This document shows positions 1,811 to 17,535 of a stretch of DNA of 17,535 bases, piece after piece. The notes under the pieces are model-generated. The model saw only the letters and a list, made by a program, of their open reading frames with translations, was not told where the DNA came from and ran no database searches. The DNA comes from a virus. A program made the position numbers and the translations under genes. Location: the UHGV virus genome UHGV-0122804; one strand, written 5' to 3'. Numbering within the stretch: the stretch's first letter is position 1; the number at the start of each line of letters is the position of its first letter.

Positions 1811-1850
1811 ATAAGTAGATGATTACTTATCTTTCTGTGAGAATACTTTC
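1811..1850 (+). promoter_or_regulatory. Motif A copy 1: inverted repeat ATAAGTA-N6-TACTTAT then CTTTCTGTG and ACTTTCA, 22 nt upstream of the ATG at 1872
   Basis: ataagta (1811-1817) and tacttat (1824-1830) are exact reverse complements. Same composite motif recurs at 5163-5200 and 8026-8078. Confidence 0.5.
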
Positions 1851-4505: not shown

Positions 4506-4717
4506 TCGTATTAAGTAAACGGGAGAAAGAAACGCTTCATGAAATAAGTAAGTGGCCGGAGTTCCCTGAGTACTGGAAGCCTAAAACGCGAGCTAAGTTA
4601 GAGCGTTTAGGGTTGGTTGCAAACGTTTCTGAAACGTGGTGTTCGGCCAACTACCAGTTAACTGATAAAGGGAAAGTATTGCTACAGCAATTAGTAGAAT
4701 CAGGAGTGTTAATATGA
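4502..4717 (+). CDS. hypothetical small protein (71 aa)
   Basis: ATGA overlap with the ligase stop and with the next ORF start, suggesting translational coupling. Confidence 0.5.
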   Translation: MIVLSKREKETLHEISKWPEFPEYWKPKTRAKLERLGLVANVSETWCSANYQLTDKGKVLLQQLVESGVLI

Positions 4718-4736
4718 TTCCATACATCTCATTAGC
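4709..4736 (+). repeat. Motif B copy 1 (TTAATATGATTCCATACATCTCATTAGC), overlapping the start codon of the 4714 ORF
   Basis: Core ATGATTCCATACATCTCAT is identical (19/19) to the reverse complement of 15839-15858 and matches 5710-5728 at 18/19. Confidence 0.7.
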
Positions 4737-4866
4737 TTTTATGGGTGGCTTCCTTATCGGCTTCGGCATCTGTCGTGATTTAATTAAGCAGGAACTTAAA
4801 ACCAAAACACTGTGCATCGGAAAGCGTGTGTATCGGGTAGTTCATGAAACAAAGGTGAAAAAATGA
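4714..4866 (+). CDS. small predicted membrane protein (50 aa), absent from the supplied ORF track
   Basis: ATG preceded by aggag (4701-4705). Hydrophobic N-terminus ISLAFMGGFLIGFGIC. Stop TGA overlaps the ATG of the next ORF (4863). Confidence 0.45.
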   Translation: MIPYISLAFMGGFLIGFGICRDLIKQELKTKTLCIGKRVYRVVHETKVKK

Positions 4867-5153
4867 GCGATTTAACTTCTTGGGAATGGTGGTTGGCCAC
4901 CTATTTCTTAGCGGCCGGAGTCGCATTCGCCTTTTACGTAGGTCAGTTAGTCGTAAAACTGTTGCTGATTAAATTTGCTAGTCATAAACGTATCGATGAT
5001 GGTCTGTGGCGTCTTGGCACCCTGGTGGAAACTCGCTACGGGCAACTTAAGGAGAACGAAACCATTACTATCCAAGCGAAACGATTCACTGCCACCATCA
5101 CAAGAACACCTAGTCGTAGAGTGGCCTTGATCAAAAAAGTCACAACCGAATAA
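4863..5153 (+). CDS. hypothetical protein with N-terminal transmembrane helix (96 aa)
   Basis: Hydrophobic segment WEWWLATYFLAAGVAFAFYVGQLVV. Coupled to the upstream small ORF. Confidence 0.5.
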   Translation: MSDLTSWEWWLATYFLAAGVAFAFYVGQLVVKLLLIKFASHKRIDDGLWRLGTLVETRYGQLKENETITIQAKRFTATITRTPSRRVALIKKVTTE

Positions 5154-5162
5154 AAATACAAT

Positions 5163-5200
5163 GATAAGTATTTACTTACTTATCTTTTGTGTATAAGATG
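5163..5200 (+). promoter_or_regulatory. Motif A copy 2: GATAAGTA-N6-TACTTATC then TTTTGTG and TATAAG, at the head of the 760-bp non-coding region
   Basis: gataagta (5163-5170) and tacttatc (5177-5184) are exact reverse complements. -10-like TATAAG at 5192-5197. Confidence 0.5.
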
Positions 5201-5548
5201 ACTTTGTTTTCGTTGAGACGCGACTGTTTGAACTTAAATACAAGTGCAAACGAAGAAGTCTATCTGGCAGTAGCCTAATAAGCCAAACACCAGCGAGGTC
5301 AGTTTCCAGCCTCGTTACCGAAATGGGACACACTGAGCGAGTGTGATTGCAAAACGCAGGTAGGGCATCTGGTTAACCAGTGCCCTTACCAATGAGGTAA
5401 CAGAATGGGCGGTTGGGTTTTATGTCCAACACATCCCGGCTCCCAAAGGCCCGACCGTCTATCCTGTTACGTCATTTCTGTTACTTATGTCGTTTAGTTT
5501 TGGGTTAAAAATGGCGACGTAACCCGGCTGGTTAGGTGAGCCAGCACG

Positions 5549-5641
5549 CAACGTTGAGACCACTGGTTTTTGCATCACAGGGGCAGAACCGGCAGACATG
5601 TAGGGCCAAGTACATTAATCCGTTCAGTGGTCTCAACGTTG
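5549..5641 (+). other. Perfect 17-bp inverted repeat enclosing a 59-nt loop
   Basis: caacgttgagaccactg (5549-5565) is the exact reverse complement of cagtggtctcaacgttg (5625-5641). Confidence 0.6.
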
Positions 5642-5705
5642 TGGTCACGGATTCATTATCCTTCTGGTTATAGCCATTGTTGTCACTGCCCCGTGGCCAC
5701 AACGA

Positions 5706-5733
5706 TTAAATGATTCCATACATCTAATTAGAT
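5706..5733 (+). repeat. Motif B copy 2 (TTAAATGATTCCATACATCTAATTAGAT) in non-coding DNA
   Basis: Shares about 26 nt with copy 1. Followed by the perfect palindrome atctaattagat (5722-5733). Would encode only MIPYI-stop. Confidence 0.7.
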
Positions 5734-5913
5734 CTGAATGAAAACTCTCCTCAACTCTCGGAGAATATTTGAAGATCTTGGCTTGTAAGCGTTTGGTGAA
5801 CACGTAAAGCACAAGTGGCAGGAAACGGTAGGACTGCTGCGAACGACACCGGTGAATCGGCGATACAGCCCCACAAGTCCGTGAATCGACAGAGGCTGAC
5901 GGTGTCAACCTTA

Positions 5914-5988
5914 GATGGTGTAGCTCAGTGGTAGAGCGGTTGACTGTTAATCAACTGGTCGGTGGTTCGAATCCACCCACCATCGCCA
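5914..5988 (+). tRNA. tRNA-Asn (anticodon GUU), 3' CCA encoded
   Basis: Hand-folded cloverleaf: acceptor GATGGTG/CACCATC, D stem GCTC/GAGC, anticodon stem GTTGA/TCAAC with loop CTGTTAA, T stem GGTGG/CCACC with loop TTCGAAT, discriminator G then CCA. Differs from E. coli tRNA-Asn as I recall it. Confidence 0.93.
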
Positions 5989-5989
5989 A

Positions 5990-6072
5990 CACAGCGCTGA
6001 ACGGTTTGGAGTTCGCCACCACCATCCGAACGGAAAGACTCCGCAAATGTCGCCAGACCGTTCAGCGCTGTG
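5990..6072 (+). ncRNA. Candidate structured RNA element directly 3' of the tRNA (20-bp stem with one G-U pair)
   Basis: 5990-6009 pairs with 6053-6072: 19 Watson-Crick pairs plus one T-G that is a wobble only in the + strand transcript. Loop contains an inner gttcg/cgaac hairpin. Confidence 0.4.
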
Positions 6073-6136
6073 ATAGACACGTTCTTAACCATTGCTTCTT
6101 AGCATCGTAGCAACACTTTTTTCAGCGCAAATAATT

Positions 6137-6160
6137 AAAGGGGCTTCGGCCCCTTTTGTA
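6137..6160. terminator. Bidirectional rho-independent terminator
   Basis: GGGGC-TTCG-GCCCC stem-loop, with TTTT downstream on + and an A-run upstream that gives TTTAATTATT on the - strand. Sits between the tRNA unit (+) and the 3' end of the - strand gene. Confidence 0.8.
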
Positions 6161-6272
6161 AGATTAGCAAAAAAGAACAATATTACTTGAAAAAAAAGAC
6201 AAAGTTAGTCAATTTCATTTAATAACACCAATGTCATAATCGAGGACCTTGCTCCTCTGCTTAATTAAACCA

Positions 6273-14176: not shown

Positions 14177-15412
14177 ATGACGACTACTGCACTGCAAAAT
14201 GAAAAAAATCCTTCTGATTACCTTGTTTGCAAGTGGTGCGGCAAATCATTTCACTATTTTAAGTCCCATGTAGCCAATGGTAATTGCGAGGGCATTCCTG
14301 AGTCAGTAAAAGATGCCGATCCTGACACCGTACTGAAAATGTACACAACGCAGTTTCCAGATGAACCAACGCTATCGAAAAAGGCACTTGATGCAATTCA
14401 AGCTAAACGTGCCGAGCAAAAAAGCGAAATGGCCAAATCTTCTGGCTTGACCAGTAGCCCTGGCTACACAGGCACAGTTGAGTACAAGACAGATCTGGTC
14501 GCAGCTCACGAACTGCTAAACGTAACGGTGGAAGAACTCGGAACAAAACGTGGGACGCCGCTCATGGTTAGCGTCAACGTCAATACGCCGTATCCAGAGT
14601 TCGTTCCCGAAGTGAAGAAAGGCTACGTATATGGCGACTTCGAACTGATCAAAGATATTTTCATGATGCTTGAACTTGGCATACCTGGCTATTTGTGGGG
14701 TCATGCAGGAACAGGCAAATCGTCATTGCCTACACAGCTATGTGCTTTGCTCAATCGTCCGTTGATCCGTGCCCAACATACAGCATCAATGGAAGAGGCA
14801 CATGTTACGGGGCAAATTCTGGCGCGTGATGGCTCTACGTATTTCGAACCTGGCTTGCTTGCGCTCGCAATGAAGCATGGCTGGGTTTACCTCGCGGATG
14901 AATACGACTTTGCGTTTCCACAAATTCTTGGCGTGTATCAGCCAGTGCTGGAAGGTGAAGCGTTGGTCATCAAAGAGGCAACTCCAGAATGGCGTCGCAT
15001 TACTCCGCATGAACGGTTTGCTTTCATTGGCACTGGCAACACGAACGGATCTGGTGATGAAACCGGCTTGTACCAGGGTACAAACATCCAGAACGCCGCG
15101 AACTTTTCGCGTTTTGGCATCGTTTCGAATGTGAAATACATGAGCAAAGACGCAGAGATCAACATGCTGACAAATGCAGGCATCGTGGATGAATACGCTG
15201 AAAAGATGGTTAAGTTTGCCGGTATCGTTCGCGATGGATACGAAGAACACCTCATTAGTCAGCCAATTGGCCCTCGTGAACTTTTGTTGTCGGCCAAGAT
15301 TGGAATGATGCGAGGCGACTTTGTGACAGGTATTGAGCGTTCTTTCATTAACAAACTCCCTTCAGCTTCTGCACAAGCGGCTCGTGAAGTTGTTCAAAAA
15401 ATATTTGGTTAA
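14177..15412 (+). CDS. cobS: CobS/MoxR-like AAA+ ATPase with an N-terminal Cys/His cluster
   Basis: Walker A GHAGTGKSS, Walker B VYLADEYD. N-terminal CKWCGKSFHYFKSHVANGNC looks like a zinc-binding knuckle. Confidence 0.8.
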   Translation: MTTTALQNEKNPSDYLVCKWCGKSFHYFKSHVANGNCEGIPESVKDADPDTVLKMYTTQFPDEPTLSKKALDAIQAKRAEQKSEMAKSSGLTSSPGYTGTVEYKTDLVAAHELLNVTVEELGTKRGTPLMVSVNVNTPYPEFVPEVKKGYVYGDFELIKDIFMMLELGIPGYLWGHAGTGKSSLPTQLCALLNRPLIRAQHTASMEEAHVTGQILARDGSTYFEPGLLALAMKHGWVYLADEYDFAFPQILGVYQPVLEGEALVIKEATPEWRRITPHERFAFIGTGNTNGSGDETGLYQGTNIQNAANFSRFGIVSNVKYMSKDAEINMLTNAGIVDEYAEKMVKFAGIVRDGYEEHLISQPIGPRELLLSAKIGMMRGDFVTGIERSFINKLPSASAQAAREVVQKIFG

Positions 15413-15414
15413 TC

Positions 15415-15618
15415 GTGCGTAAAGGATGTTTCGGCTCTCTTATCGCTGCTTCTGAAACTGGTAAGGCTTGTCTGGTGTGTCCAGACAAGCCCGATTGTCA
15501 CCAATCAGCAAAAGAAGTTGCGATTTCGATGCATGGGAAGTTCGTAGGCTTCCCCAATGACAAAATCAAAAAAACCAGAAAGGTAAAAACACATGAAGGC
15601 ACTGATGGTTCGAACTGA
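15415..15618 (+). CDS. hypothetical small Cys-rich protein (67 aa), GTG start; overlaps the dnaE start by 26 nt
   Basis: CLVCPDKPDCH cluster. Doubtful as a real gene because of the overlap with dnaE and the non-ATG start. Confidence 0.3.
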   Translation: MRKGCFGSLIAASETGKACLVCPDKPDCHQSAKEVAISMHGKFVGFPNDKIKKTRKVKTHEGTDGSN

Positions 15619-17535
15619 CTTCTCACTTGGGGAGTCGGCTCTAAAAGCAGAAAACGCGGTGAAGATTGCCAGAGAAGCTGGCTACACCGCTGTAATTTCA
15701 GCAGATAGCATGAATATTGCGAGCGTTATTCCACTACAACGTGCCGCTGGTGACGACATGGCGGTTATTTGTGGTGTGAAACTAAACATTGTTGATGATC
15801 CCACATACGAGCACCGGGCTAAACTTGCTAAAGAATCTATGAGATGTATGGAATCATTAGAGCGAGGACGTAACTACTCGTTTACCGCTCTAATTAAAAA
15901 TGAGAAAGGATATCGCGACATCTGCGAACTAATGACGGCGGCCAACACACGAGAACAGTTCTACTTTGTACCGCGTCTCTCGCTCGAACAGTTGGTTTCT
16001 ACATATGCCAAAGGCAACATCATCCTGCTTACTTCCGACATCGGTAGCGTGTTCCAACGCAACGATTTTGCAAAAATCATAAGCACACTGATTACAGCGG
16101 GTGGAAAAGACAACTTCTATAGTGTGGTTTATCCGCACCCTACCCCATTCTACGACCAGATTAACGTCCGGGCGATGAAAGTCGCCAGCGCATTGAAAAT
16201 AGAGCCAGTGGCGTTCTATCCCGCTTATTACGAATCGATCGACGATGCAGACATTAAAGACATTGCGCACATGGTTACGAACAACATCAAAATCGACCAG
16301 CCGCATCGTCTGCGTATCCCCCACCAGCGAGATAACGCCGTCAATGGTCGCCGCCATCTCCTTGAGGCGCTTAAAGCCTTCTCCGTTCGCATGGATGTGC
16401 CGGTAACAGCTGCAATGGCCTCAACAACGCAGGATACCATTATCGATGCCTGCACATGGCGCTGGCATGAATTGCCGCCAGCACTGCCAAAGATGGCAGA
16501 CGACGAGCCTGCAACGCTGATGAAACTGGCTGTTGCAGGGCTGCGTAAACGTCTTACCACAAAAGAGTTTGGCTACACACCACCTGCTTCTGAGAACAGG
16601 GTTTATGTTGAGCGGCTAAAGTACGAAATGGACACGCTGACTCGCCTGGGATTCTGTGGTTACTTCCTGATGGTGCGCGATCTGATGAATCATAGTCGTG
16701 AAACTGGCATTCCCGTTGGGCCTGGTCGTGGTTCCTCTGCCGGTTCTCTGGTGGCGTGGTGCATAGGCATAACCAACGTCGACCCAATCCGTCACGGTCT
16801 TCTGTTTGAGCGTTTCATCAACCCTGAGCGTCTCGACTTGCCGGATGCGGACTTGGACTTCAGCCAGGCACGTCGCCATGAGGTGATCGAGTATCTGAAT
16901 GAACGCTACGGCGAAGATTACGTTGCAGGCATTCCGAACTTCACCTACCTGGGCGCAGCCTCTGCACTACGTGATACCGCTCGTATTTATGGTGTGGAGT
17001 CCGCAGATATGGCGGTATCAAAAGAGCTGAAGAACGTCGAGGATGATAGCCTTCCATTGGAGGAGCTGCGCGAACAACTGGCAAGTCTCGACAAATACGC
17101 AACAAAATATCCTGATGCATTCAATGCAGCCTGCAAGTTACAAAGCCTTATGCGTGGCTTTGGTAGACATGCGGCAGGGATGATCGTAGCAGGTGTTCCT
17201 CTGACAGAACGTACACCGGTTGAACGCCGTGGTGACGCGCGTTGTATCGCATTTGACAAGCGTTACTGCGAGGCTATGGGCCTAATTAAGCTGGACGTAC
17301 TCGGTCTGGCAACTCTCGATTTGCTCGATAGTGCAAAACGCTACATAAAAGAGAACACAGGTGAAGATATCAATCTTGATGCCATTTCTCTTGAAGATCG
17401 CAAGGTGCTGGATGGTTTTGCTGCTGGGTACACTCAAGGTGTTTTCCAGCTTGAATCAGGCCCAATGCGCAAGCTGCTTAAAGATTTAGGTGGTGGAATT
17501 GAGCCAATGAGCTTTAAAACGGTTGTTGCTACGAC
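15593..17535 (+). CDS. dnaE: DNA polymerase III alpha subunit (DnaE-type), N-terminal about 647 aa; 3' end cut by window edge
   Basis: Frame stays open to the window end. GPGRGSSAGSLVAWCIGIT, LLFERFINPER, PDADLDF, GRHAAGMIVA, GVFQLES match E. coli DnaE catalytic-core blocks as I recall them. N-terminal PHP-like region lacks the usual His residues. SD aaagg before the ATG. Confidence 0.9.
   Translation, partial: MKALMVRTDFSLGESALKAENAVKIAREAGYTAVISADSMNIASVIPLQRAAGDDMAVICGVKLNIVDDPTYEHRAKLAKESMRCMESLERGRNYSFTALIKNEKGYRDICELMTAANTREQFYFVPRLSLEQLVSTYAKGNIILLTSDIGSVFQRNDFAKIISTLITAGGKDNFYSVVYPHPTPFYDQINVRAMKVASALKIEPVAFYPAYYESIDDADIKDIAHMVTNNIKIDQPHRLRIPHQRDNAVNGRRHLLEALKAFSVRMDVPVTAAMASTTQDTIIDACTWRWHELPPALPKMADDEPATLMKLAVAGLRKRLTTKEFGYTPPASENRVYVERLKYEMDTLTRLGFCGYFLMVRDLMNHSRETGIPVGPGRGSSAGSLVAWCIGITNVDPIRHGLLFERFINPERLDLPDADLDFSQARRHEVIEYLNERYGEDYVAGIPNFTYLGAASALRDTARIYGVESADMAVSKELKNVEDDSLPLEELREQLASLDKYATKYPDAFNAACKLQSLMRGFGRHAAGMIVAGVPLTERTPVERRGDARCIAFDKRYCEAMGLIKLDVLGLATLDLLDSAKRYIKENTGEDINLDAISLEDRKVLDGFAAGYTQGVFQLESGPMRKLLKDLGGGIEPMSFKTVVAT
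15839..15858 (-). repeat. Motif B copy 4, inverted, inside the dnaE coding sequence
   Basis: atgagatgtatggaatcatt is the reverse complement of AATGATTCCATACATCTCAT; it encodes MRCMES in DnaE. Confidence 0.7.

What the first reader, a model, noticed from the sequence alone, without database searches (positions are those of the whole stretch)
15839..15858. Inverted copy of motif B embedded in the dnaE coding sequence
The 19-mer ATGATTCCATACATCTCAT is present in reverse complement inside dnaE, where it encodes MRCMES. An exact 19-mer shared between a coding region and two intergenic sites 10-11 kb away has a chance expectation of about 0.002 in this window. It implies either a DNA-level function tolerated within the gene (protein-binding site, recombination pseudo-site, antisense promoter) or a past recombination or mosaic junction.
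Basis: seen in the sequence. Interest (0 to 1): 0.5.

Follow-up and report, generated by a model that had tools for sequence, protein, structure and literature searches.

The report
Recombinase half-site conserved inside dnaE
The motif inside dnaE is real and is kept at the DNA level across a whole family of phage-plasmids; it matches one arm of a lox-like site that sits in front of the element's own tyrosine recombinase gene, so it is most likely a binding site for that enzyme and shows no sign of being a recombination scar or a promoter.

Summary
The window is an SSU5/pHCM2/pMT1-type phage-plasmid. The core AATGATTCCATAC occurs five times, all within 11 kb:
- 4713 (+), on the start codon of a 50-aa ORF
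- 5709 (+)
- 9796 (+) and 9816 (-), which form a perfect 13-7-13 palindrome about 100 bp upstream of a tyrosine recombinase gene (9927-11030)
- 15846 (-), inside dnaE

Two complete relatives carry the motif nowhere else.

In 46 distinct dnaE sequences (at least 76.6% identical), the longest invariant run in the first 900 nt is the 14 nt of the motif. It is flanked by hypervariable codons (P about 1e-4).

Across 62 recombinase homologues from other species, every one has the same palindrome geometry upstream. The arm sequence switches with the recombinase clade, to TGTGACTCCAGAC, even where no phage genes or repressor are present.

I found no promoter consensus, no homology break and no inversion or deletion junction in about 800 plasmids.

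Best reading: the dnaE copy is an isolated recombinase half-site held by selection, used for binding and not for crossover. Its purpose is unknown, and an RNA-pairing rival remains open.

The exact 19-mer is lineage-specific. The conserved unit is 14-16 nt.

The parts
15843..15858 (-). dnaE-embedded single copy, read on the - strand as AATGATTCCATAC+ATC. On the + strand it is GA TGT ATG GAA TCA TT, dnaE codons 84-89. Positions 15845-15858 are invariant in the clade.
4713..4728 (+). Single copy 'site 1', (T)ATGATTCCATACATC. It overlaps the start codon and first four codons (MIPYI) of the 50-aa ORF 4714-4866.
5709..5724 (+). Single copy 'site 2', AATGATTCCATACATC. It lies at the 3' edge of a conserved structured non-coding region and about 190 bp upstream of tRNA-Asn.
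9796..9828 (.). Full site: 13-bp arm AATGATTCCATAC, 7-bp spacer CTACTAT, 13-bp inverted arm. It is the inferred crossover (lox-like) site of the recombinase and the right-hand boundary of the variable cargo region.
9927..11030 (+). Tyrosine recombinase ('integrase') gene, 367 aa. The protein has core-binding and catalytic domains and no recognised arm-binding domain.
10533..10543 (-). Degenerate int-internal copy (TGATTCCAAAC) at Int codons V-W-N-Q. The same position is intact (cTTGATTCCATACATC) in pMT1, Klebsiella, L076, L143 and L144.
5735..9795 (.). Variable cargo region between site 2 and the palindrome. It holds tRNA-Asn, a 529-aa ORF, phoH, a gp49/66-family gene and glutaredoxin. Other relatives carry different genes here.
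15593..17535 (+). 5' part of dnaE, which runs off the window. The motif sits in a variable loop between the conserved EHR and YSF residues.

Best explanation
The dnaE copy is an isolated half-site of the site recognised by the phage-plasmid's own tyrosine recombinase (Int, 9927-11030).

The full site is the 13-7-13 palindrome at 9796-9828, directly upstream of int. It is present once per plasmid and most likely serves plasmid multimer resolution, as loxP does for P1.

In the SSU5/pHCM2/pMT1 clade, extra single arms extended by ATC are kept by purifying selection on both sides of that site. The left copies (4713, 5709) are on the + strand. The right copies (inside int in some lineages, inside dnaE in this one) are on the - strand. 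All of them face the palindrome.

The dnaE copy occupies a permissive loop of the polymerase. There the DNA requirement fixes the codons TGT ATG GAA TCA TT and constrains the preceding codon to xGA.

I infer that one Int protomer binds there without strand exchange, and that the single copies act as accessory or regulatory binding sites for the core site or for int expression. What that achieves is not known.

Shown here: the copies, their clustering, their conservation beyond coding need, and the co-variation of palindrome arms with the Int clade.

Inferred: Int binding, the resolution role, and the accessory role.
For: 1. Five copies of the 13-mer in the window against 0.49 expected. Exactly five in the whole 109-kb relative NZ_CP031136.1, all within 10 kb of int. 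In whole pMT1 the exact 11-mer occurs five times, plus one 1-mismatch cobT match, all within about 13 kb of int.
2. The same layout is found in Cyrano, pMT1, a Klebsiella plasmid and about 70 IMG/VR loci.
3. In the dnaE alignment of 46 distinct sequences (minimum identity 76.6%), the longest invariant run is the 14-nt motif. Third codon positions are invariant in only 16% of codons. P(all 14 invariant) = 1.2e-4. The flanking codons are hypervariable at the amino-acid level.
4. A relative with 56% Int identity has an unrelated sequence in this dnaE loop, so the protein does not need CMES.
5. All 62 Int homologues from species-level genomes carry a 13-7-13 palindrome about 100 bp upstream. Arms are TGTGACTCCAGAC in the 45-52% clade and AATGATTCCATAC in this clade, and both arms change together.
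6. More than 50 of those loci lack the HTH repressor, cobT, dnaE and ligase. Int is therefore the only protein that always travels with the site.
7. The Int model resembles the lambda Int core bound to its COC' site, which has a 7-bp overlap.
8. All 214 E. coli genomes that carry the site have it on a plasmid, once, and never in a chromosome.
9. Lineages that lack the dnaE copy keep an intact int-internal (-) copy, and the reverse also holds.
Against: - There is no binding or recombination data.
- The single copies share TGATTCCATAC+ATC, but the ATC extension is absent from the palindrome, and the first AA of the arms is not required in the single copies. Single copies and arms may therefore be read differently, or by different molecules.
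- Clade-B phage-plasmids (Xenorhabdus, Morganella) have the palindrome but no single copies. The single copies are therefore dispensable for the lifestyle.
- A lone half-site 6 kb from the core has no established role in any tyrosine recombinase system I know of.
- The orientation pattern is explained equally well by RNA-RNA pairing (see rivals).
- The multimer-resolution role rests only on site anatomy and plasmid-only distribution.
Confidence: 0.55

Rival explanations
1. RNA-level antisense network. All genes here are transcribed rightwards. The left copies therefore appear in RNA as UGAUUCCAUACAUC: in the translation start of the 50-aa ORF and in the 3' tail of the structured non-coding RNA at 5230-5730. 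The right copies appear in int and dnaE mRNAs as the perfect complement GAUGUAUGGAAUCA. A regulatory RNA could pair with the dnaE and int mRNAs.
For: - There are 14-16 nt of perfect complementarity between every left and every right single copy.
- The ATC extension is shared by single copies on both sides but not by the palindrome.
- Site 2 lies in the unpaired 3' tail of a strongly structured region (z = -5.9) that is highly conserved.
- The orientation rule (left +, right -) follows automatically from co-directional transcription.
Against: - It does not explain why the element equals the arm of a palindrome that co-varies with the recombinase across 62 species.
- Where one partner varies (ACC for ATC in L030, L040, L063), the other does not follow.
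- Pairing beyond 16 nt is not conserved among close relatives.
- No transcript data are available.
Confidence: 0.15
2. Binding site of another DNA-binding protein, with the palindrome as a double site. Candidates are the neighbouring HTH repressor (11025-11411, -), the 71-aa protein encoded just upstream of site 1, and a host factor. This would resemble the scattered asymmetric C1 operators of P1.
For: - The single copies have a small dyad of their own (GAT-N7-ATC) and differ from the arms at both edges.
- The repressor is encoded next to int in all phage-plasmid relatives.
- P1 C1 uses single and paired asymmetric operators (from memory).
Against: - The palindrome is kept with Int in more than 50 loci that have no homologue of the repressor or of any phage gene.
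- No motif copy lies in the repressor/cro-like intergenic region 11412-11661.
- None of the copies overlaps a promoter-like site.
- Invariance over 13-16 bp fits a recombinase clamp better than an HTH half-site (inference).
Confidence: 0.15
3. Recombination pseudo-site or old mosaic junction. On this reading the dnaE copy is an attL/attR-like hybrid left by a past Int-mediated event, or a site still used for inversion with the 4714 copy.
For: - The window's 4714 and dnaE copies share arm plus 7 nt (ATCTCAT) in inverted orientation.
- One relative (L008) has a 9-bp tandem duplication exactly at the site.
- The region left of the palindrome is a hotspot of gene turnover.
Against: - Homology with all relatives is continuous through 15839-15858.
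- None of about 800 plasmid records has the inversion junction or the site1-site2 deletion junction.
- The 7-nt extension differs between copies in most lineages and never matches the palindrome spacer.
- dnaE is an uninterrupted orthologue in relatives that lack the motif.
- A scar would not stay invariant at synonymous sites.
Confidence: 0.07
4. Coincidence of descent. The motif arose by chance in the CMES-encoding codons and is shared only because the sequences are related.
For: The dnaE copy is absent from the more distant relatives L076 and L143. A run of at least 14 invariant columns somewhere in 900 nt has P = 0.03 under a codon-position model, which is not vanishing.
Against: - The location was fixed in advance, which gives P = 1.2e-4.
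- It is retained in Nissabacter-type elements with only 60% Int identity.
- Adjacent codons change amino acid repeatedly while keeping xGA.
- Three other single copies in unrelated contexts show the same island of conservation.
Confidence: 0.05
5. Antisense promoter inside dnaE.
For: None beyond the conserved non-coding-like signal on the minus strand.
Against: No sigma-70-type match on either strand in 15300-16300, and none at the other copies. The same element also occurs in the sense orientation within an operon (4713).
Confidence: 0.03

Closest known systems
Cre/loxP of phage-plasmid P1 (and Dre/rox of D6)
   Same: The host is a phage that lives as a plasmid. There is one site per genome next to the recombinase gene, with 13-bp perfect inverted arms around a short asymmetric spacer. 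The presumed role is resolving plasmid multimers.
   Different: - The spacer is 7 bp, not 8.
- The protein shows no sequence match to Cre, and its fold is closer to the lambda Int core than to Cre.
- Extra conserved single arms lie kilobases away, some inside genes.
- No experiment has been done.
Lambda Int core site (C-O-C', 7-bp overlap) and P4/CP4-57-type integrases
   Same: It is the best structural match, and the overlap is 7 bp. There is weak profile similarity to the P4-type integrase core.
   Different: - It has no recognisable arm-binding N-terminal domain.
- There are no distinct arm-type sites.
- The site is always found intact on plasmids, never as attL/attR in 5,426 E. coli genomes.
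TnpI/IRS of Tn4430 and Tn5401; integron attI DR1/DR2 (from memory)
   Same: The recombinase motif is used twice as an inverted pair (the crossover core) and again as extra single copies that bind the enzyme without crossover. In Tn5401, copies also sit far from the core, in the transposon ends.
   Different: In those systems most accessory copies lie within about 100 bp of the core and have a demonstrated role in selectivity or in regulating transposition. Here they lie 0.7-6.7 kb away at variable distances, inside coding sequence, and carry an ATC extension that the core arms lack.
XerD-binding half-dif sites (XDS) of Bacillus subtilis (from memory)
   Same: These are isolated half-sites of a tyrosine recombinase site that bind one recombinase and serve a non-recombination function.
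   Different: The context is chromosomal, tied to SMC unloading. There is no evidence of any such partner here.

Membership tests
Simple tyrosine-recombinase crossover site (lox/FRT/dif type) | Two inverted recombinase-binding arms of about 11-14 bp | tested here: not met
   The dnaE copy has one arm only. The sequence beyond the 7 nt (AGATTCTTTAGCA) does not resemble the arm. The feature is met by the palindrome 9796-9828, not by the finding itself.
Simple tyrosine-recombinase crossover site (lox/FRT/dif type) | A 6-8 bp asymmetric spacer shared by recombining partners | tested here: not met
   The 7 nt next to the dnaE arm (ATCTCAT) differ from the palindrome spacer CTACTAT. They also vary between lineages and between copies.
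Binding half-site of the element's tyrosine recombinase | Sequence identical to an arm of the cognate full site | tested here: met
   13 of 13 identical to both arms of 9796-9828. This holds in all relatives of the clade.
Binding half-site of the element's tyrosine recombinase | The full site is specifically associated with, and co-varies with, the recombinase | tested here: met
   All 62 homologues have the palindrome upstream. The arms differ by clade and change symmetrically, and the association persists where no other shared gene is present.
Binding half-site of the element's tyrosine recombinase | The single copy co-varies with the arms of its own element | tested here: inconclusive
   L143 has G before TGATTCC in both its arms and its site 2. 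L076 has T in the arms and G in the single copy. Too few independent lineages are available.
Binding half-site of the element's tyrosine recombinase | Physical binding by the recombinase | not testable with these tools
   Needs EMSA, footprinting or ChIP.
Cre/loxP family | Cre-like protein and 13-8-13 site | tested here: not met
   phmmer finds no PDB hit at E <= 1. Foldseek gives E about 0.09 for Cre against 5e-7 for lambda Int. The spacer is 7 bp.
Accessory recombinase sites of the TnpI/IRS or attI type | Extra copies of the core motif immediately adjacent to the core (within about 150 bp) | tested here: not met
   The single copies lie 0.7 to 6.7 kb from the palindrome, and the distance varies with cargo.
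attL/attR hybrid site or mosaic junction | Break of homology between relatives at the site | tested here: not met
   BLAST segments run uninterrupted from about 13.1 kb to 17.5 kb in all relatives.
Sigma-70 antisense promoter | -35 and -10 hexamers with 16-18 bp spacing | tested here: not met
   No match on either strand in 15300-16300.
Antisense RNA target site | Complementarity to a co-encoded RNA | tested here: met
   16 nt are complementary to the sense strand at 4713 and 5709.
Antisense RNA target site | Compensatory change between the partners, and existence of the regulatory transcript | tested here: inconclusive
   The few variants (ACC for ATC) are not matched in the partner. Transcripts cannot be tested here.

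The most novel reading that the evidence does not exclude
The inward-facing single copies are a functional unit. They comprise the start of a small ORF, the tail of a conserved non-coding RNA, the recombinase gene itself and dnaE. Together they would couple the plasmid's lox-like site, or a regulatory RNA, to expression of the recombinase and of the phage replicative polymerase. This would be a control circuit written into coding sequence, and it has no described counterpart among tyrosine recombinase systems.
Probability: 0.15. Interest if true: 0.75.

Novelty: new variant of a known kind. Interest (0 to 1): 0.55.

Why it matters
SSU5/pHCM2/pMT1-type phage-plasmids are common in clinical Enterobacterales. 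They were found in 214 of 5,426 complete E. coli genomes and include the Yersinia pestis pMT1 plasmid. They carry virulence, resistance and anti-defence cargo in the region that ends at this palindrome.

A defined recombinase and site pair would explain how these low-copy elements resolve multimers. It would also give a new 13-7-13 recombination tool with natural spacer variants.

The conserved half-sites inside dnaE and int are a clear case of a DNA signal overriding codon choice and shaping a protein loop. If they regulate the polymerase or the recombinase, they link plasmid maintenance to the lytic programme.

Tried and rejected
- **Promoter and terminator scans** at all copies found nothing.
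- **Rfam** on the window and on 5100-6250 gave only tRNA-Asn and sub-threshold noise.
- **Hypothetical junctions.** The inversion junction (site 1 x dnaE) and the deletion junction (site 1 x site 2) were searched in PLSDB. None of about 800 and about 1,270 matching records covers either junction.
- **Chromosomally integrated forms in E. coli.** None were found.
- **Other genomes lacking int.** No plasmid record shares SSU5's deletion junction. The natural experiment of losing Int therefore has n = 1: SSU5, whose site 2 carries the only core mutation seen at that site.
- **attL/attR reading of the single copies.** The spacer orientation and the continuity of dnaE rule it out.
- **Decayed second arm next to the single copies.** At best 6 of 13 positions match in one lineage, so this was not pursued (read from the sequences).
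- **Longer left-right complementarity within lineages.** It shows a slight excess over shuffled pairs (1.64 against 1.18 nt). The test ignores relatedness, and close relatives break the pattern.
- **An int-internal copy co-varying with the arms in the distant clade.** The apparent match reduces to the conserved W-x-Q codons.
- **Literature search by sequence words.** It returned only unrelated primers.
- **Papers on SSU5-like elements.** They mention tyrosine recombinases as persistent genes but name no site.
Full report
**What the window is.** Megablast places the window in the SSU5/pHCM2/pMT1/pLF82 (Cyrano) group of phage-plasmids. Gene order, with names from annotated relatives, is helicase, primase, ligase, small ORFs, tRNA-Asn, variable genes, glutaredoxin, integrase, HTH repressor (convergent), CobT-like, AAA ATPase, dnaE.

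**The observation.**
- The 13-nt core AATGATTCCATAC has two more copies, 9796-9808 (+) and 9816-9828 (-). They form a perfect inverted repeat around the 7-bp spacer CTACTAT, about 100 bp upstream of the ORF 9927-11030.
- The 4714 copy is not intergenic. It is the start codon and first codons of a conserved 50-aa ORF.
- The ORF 9927-11030 is a tyrosine recombinase. It matches Pfam Phage_integrase, and its model (pLDDT 84) is closest to the lambda Int core on its COC' site, then to Tn1549 Int, IntI and the Xer proteins. Cre is far weaker, and no arm-binding domain was recognised.

**Clustering.** In the complete 109-kb relative NZ_CP031136.1 the 13-mer occurs exactly five times, all within 10 kb around int. 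In complete pMT1 the exact 11-mer occurs five times: site 1, the two palindrome arms, an int-internal copy and the dnaE copy. There is also one 1-mismatch match in cobT. All of these lie within about 13 kb around int. The arrangement is the same everywhere: single copies left of the palindrome are on the + strand, single copies right of it are on the - strand, and all face the palindrome.

**Is the dnaE copy constrained beyond coding?** I aligned the first 900 nt of dnaE from 46 distinct sequences (minimum pairwise identity 76.6%).
- The longest run of invariant columns is TGTATGGAATCATT at 15845-15858. The next longest run is 11 nt.
- Third codon positions are invariant in only 16% of codons. 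Only 32 of 213 degenerate codons with a conserved amino acid are invariant. Yet TGT, GAA and TCA are all fixed.
- Given codon-position rates, the chance that these 14 pre-specified columns are all invariant is 1.2e-4.
- The two codons upstream take six and two amino acids but nearly always end in GA, which preserves the ATC extension. The codons downstream also vary.
- In relatives with 56-59% Int identity (L076, L143) this loop, between the conserved EHR and YSF residues, has an unrelated sequence of the same length. DnaE therefore does not need CMES.
- The copy is still present in a Nissabacter-type element with 60% Int identity.
- Sites 1 and 2 show the same island of conservation in diverged flanks.

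**What recognises it?** A scan of one genome per species with an Int alignment returned 62 loci.
- In every one, a 13-7-13 inverted repeat lies about 100 bp upstream of the recombinase gene.
- In the 45-52% identity clade (Rahnella, Pantoea, Erwinia, Ewingella, Xenorhabdus and others) the arms are TGTGACTCCAGAC instead of AATGATTCCATAC. The changes are mirrored in both arms. The spacer is usually TTAATAG, in either orientation.
- More than 50 of these loci contain no homologue of the HTH repressor, CobT, DnaE or ligase. The recombinase is therefore the only gene that always accompanies the palindrome.

This is strong comparative evidence that the palindrome is Int's site. By identity of sequence, the single copies are then arms of that site. 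Within the clade the arms are invariant while the spacer differs between lineages: CTACTAT, CTATTAA, TTGTAAG, TCCTTAG, TTGGTAG. This is the behaviour expected of a lox-type site.

**What the site is probably for.** The palindrome region is present in 214 of 5,426 complete E. coli genomes. It is always on a plasmid, always single, and never chromosomal. It is always found as an intact full site, never as hybrid halves. That fits a resident multimer-resolution site better than an attP. This step is inference.

Homology between the window and every relative resumes at 9791-9797, the left edge of the palindrome. The stretch between about 5.6-5.7 kb and 9795 is a cargo hotspot, holding phoH here, tRNAs in Cyrano, the caf1 capsule operon in pMT1, and toxin-antitoxin and anti-defence genes in others.

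**What the dnaE copy is not.**
- There is no promoter-like or terminator-like match at any copy.
- Homology runs through the dnaE site in all relatives.
- No record among about 800 family plasmids has the predicted inversion junction between site 1 and dnaE, and none has the site1-site2 deletion.
- The 7 nt beside the arm never match the palindrome spacer and differ between copies in most lineages. Even close E. coli relatives read ATCCCAT or ATCCCTT. The exact 19-mer is therefore a lineage-specific extension of a conserved 14-16-mer.

**Features that remain unexplained.**
- The single copies share TGATTCCATAC+ATC, which has a small GAT...ATC dyad. The palindrome arms share AATGATTCCATAC and have no ATC.
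- A further (-) copy sits inside int at codons D-V-W-N-Q. It is intact in pMT1, Klebsiella, L076, L143 and L144, with identical synonymous choices. It has decayed in the window's lineage and in L142, both of which have the dnaE copy. Lineages without the dnaE copy keep the int copy. At least one single copy on each side therefore seems to be retained, though only about four independent lineages support this.
- Clade-B phage-plasmids have no single copies.
- Because everything is transcribed rightwards, the left copies in RNA are the exact complement of the right copies in int and dnaE mRNAs. Site 2 lies in the unpaired 3' tail of a highly structured, highly conserved non-coding region. An RNA-pairing function cannot be excluded. 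It would account for the ATC extension, but not for the identity with the recombinase's palindrome arms.

**Verdict.** The dnaE copy is best read as a conserved half-site of the element's own tyrosine recombinase, tolerated in a permissive loop of DnaE and used for binding, not for crossover (confidence about 0.55). Its purpose is open. It is not a mosaic junction, an active inversion site or a promoter.

The recombinase and palindrome pair works like Cre/loxP but is not a member of that family. The isolated half-sites resemble the accessory copies of the TnpI and attI systems and XerD half-sites, but they differ in distance, in lying within coding sequence, and in sequence extension. I found no description of this site in the searchable literature, which is limited to open-access papers.

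Noticed in passing
window 5230-5700 (+): A non-coding region of about 470 nt that is strongly structured (RNA fold z = -5.9). It is 96-100% identical to a Klebsiella plasmid whose flanking genes are only 60-80% identical. It contains a tmRNA-tag-like frame, GCA AAC GAA GAA GTC TAT CTG GCA GTA GCC TAA TAA (ANEEVYLAVA**), at about 5247-5282. ARAGORN calls no tmRNA, and Rfam gives only a sub-threshold beta_tmRNA hit. Positions 5236-5348 match, at 74% identity, a non-coding stretch between the Q antiterminator and holin genes of a lambdoid prophage.
   Followed up: partly
window 9809-9815 and the same spacer in L008-L140: The 7-bp spacer of the palindrome differs between lineages whose recombinases are 98-100% identical. 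It also occurs in both orientations relative to int (for example L067 against L059, and many clade-B loci). Possible causes are loop inversion by template switching or a way of making related plasmids recombinationally incompatible.
   Followed up: partly
L008 about 6950-6980 (the dnaE site of an IMG/VR relative): A 9-bp in-frame tandem duplication (ACATCTCAT twice) lies exactly at the spacer-side edge of the dnaE motif.
   Followed up: no
window 10533-10543 (-); L003 14658-14670; L004 14740-14752; L076/L143/L144 about 10604-10617: The recombinase gene contains a copy of its own site arm at codons D-V-W-N-Q. The copy is intact, with identical synonymous codons, in lineages only about 60% identical in protein. 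It has decayed in the window's lineage.
   Followed up: partly
window 5735-9795 and the equivalent region in L003, L004, L143, L144: This is a cargo hotspot bounded on the right by the palindrome. It carries phoH and a 529-aa ORF with no Pfam match here, the caf1 F1-capsule operon in pMT1, and ParE/Phd, Acb2/Tad1-like, Tad2-like and sequestin-like anti-defence genes in other relatives.
   Followed up: partly
about 15-30 bp left of the palindrome (window about 9770-9790; many loci): An A/T-rich element, CAGA(A/T)TT(T/C)AAA(A/T)(A/T), recurs just left of the palindrome even where the rest of the left flank is unrelated. It may be an accessory-factor site or part of the conserved unit.
   Followed up: no
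window 1811-1834, 5162-5192, 8025-8055, 14095-14114: A repeated hairpin-plus-T-run element (TGATAAGTAnnnTACTTATCTTTT) follows several genes. It looks like a shared family of intrinsic terminators.
   Followed up: no
L002 (phage SSU5) 7618-7630 and 7870-8035: SSU5 lacks the whole int-repressor module. No plasmid record shares that deletion. SSU5's site 2 carries the only core substitution (A to G) seen at that site among 29 distinct contexts.
   Followed up: partly
L006 (NZ_CP031136.1) 44345-45079 and 49223 onward: In a close relative, dnaE is not annotated as one gene, and an HNH endonuclease gene lies within its span. The downstream recombinase gene carries a LAGLIDADG endonuclease. Introns or inteins may be present, beyond the end of the window.
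   Followed up: no
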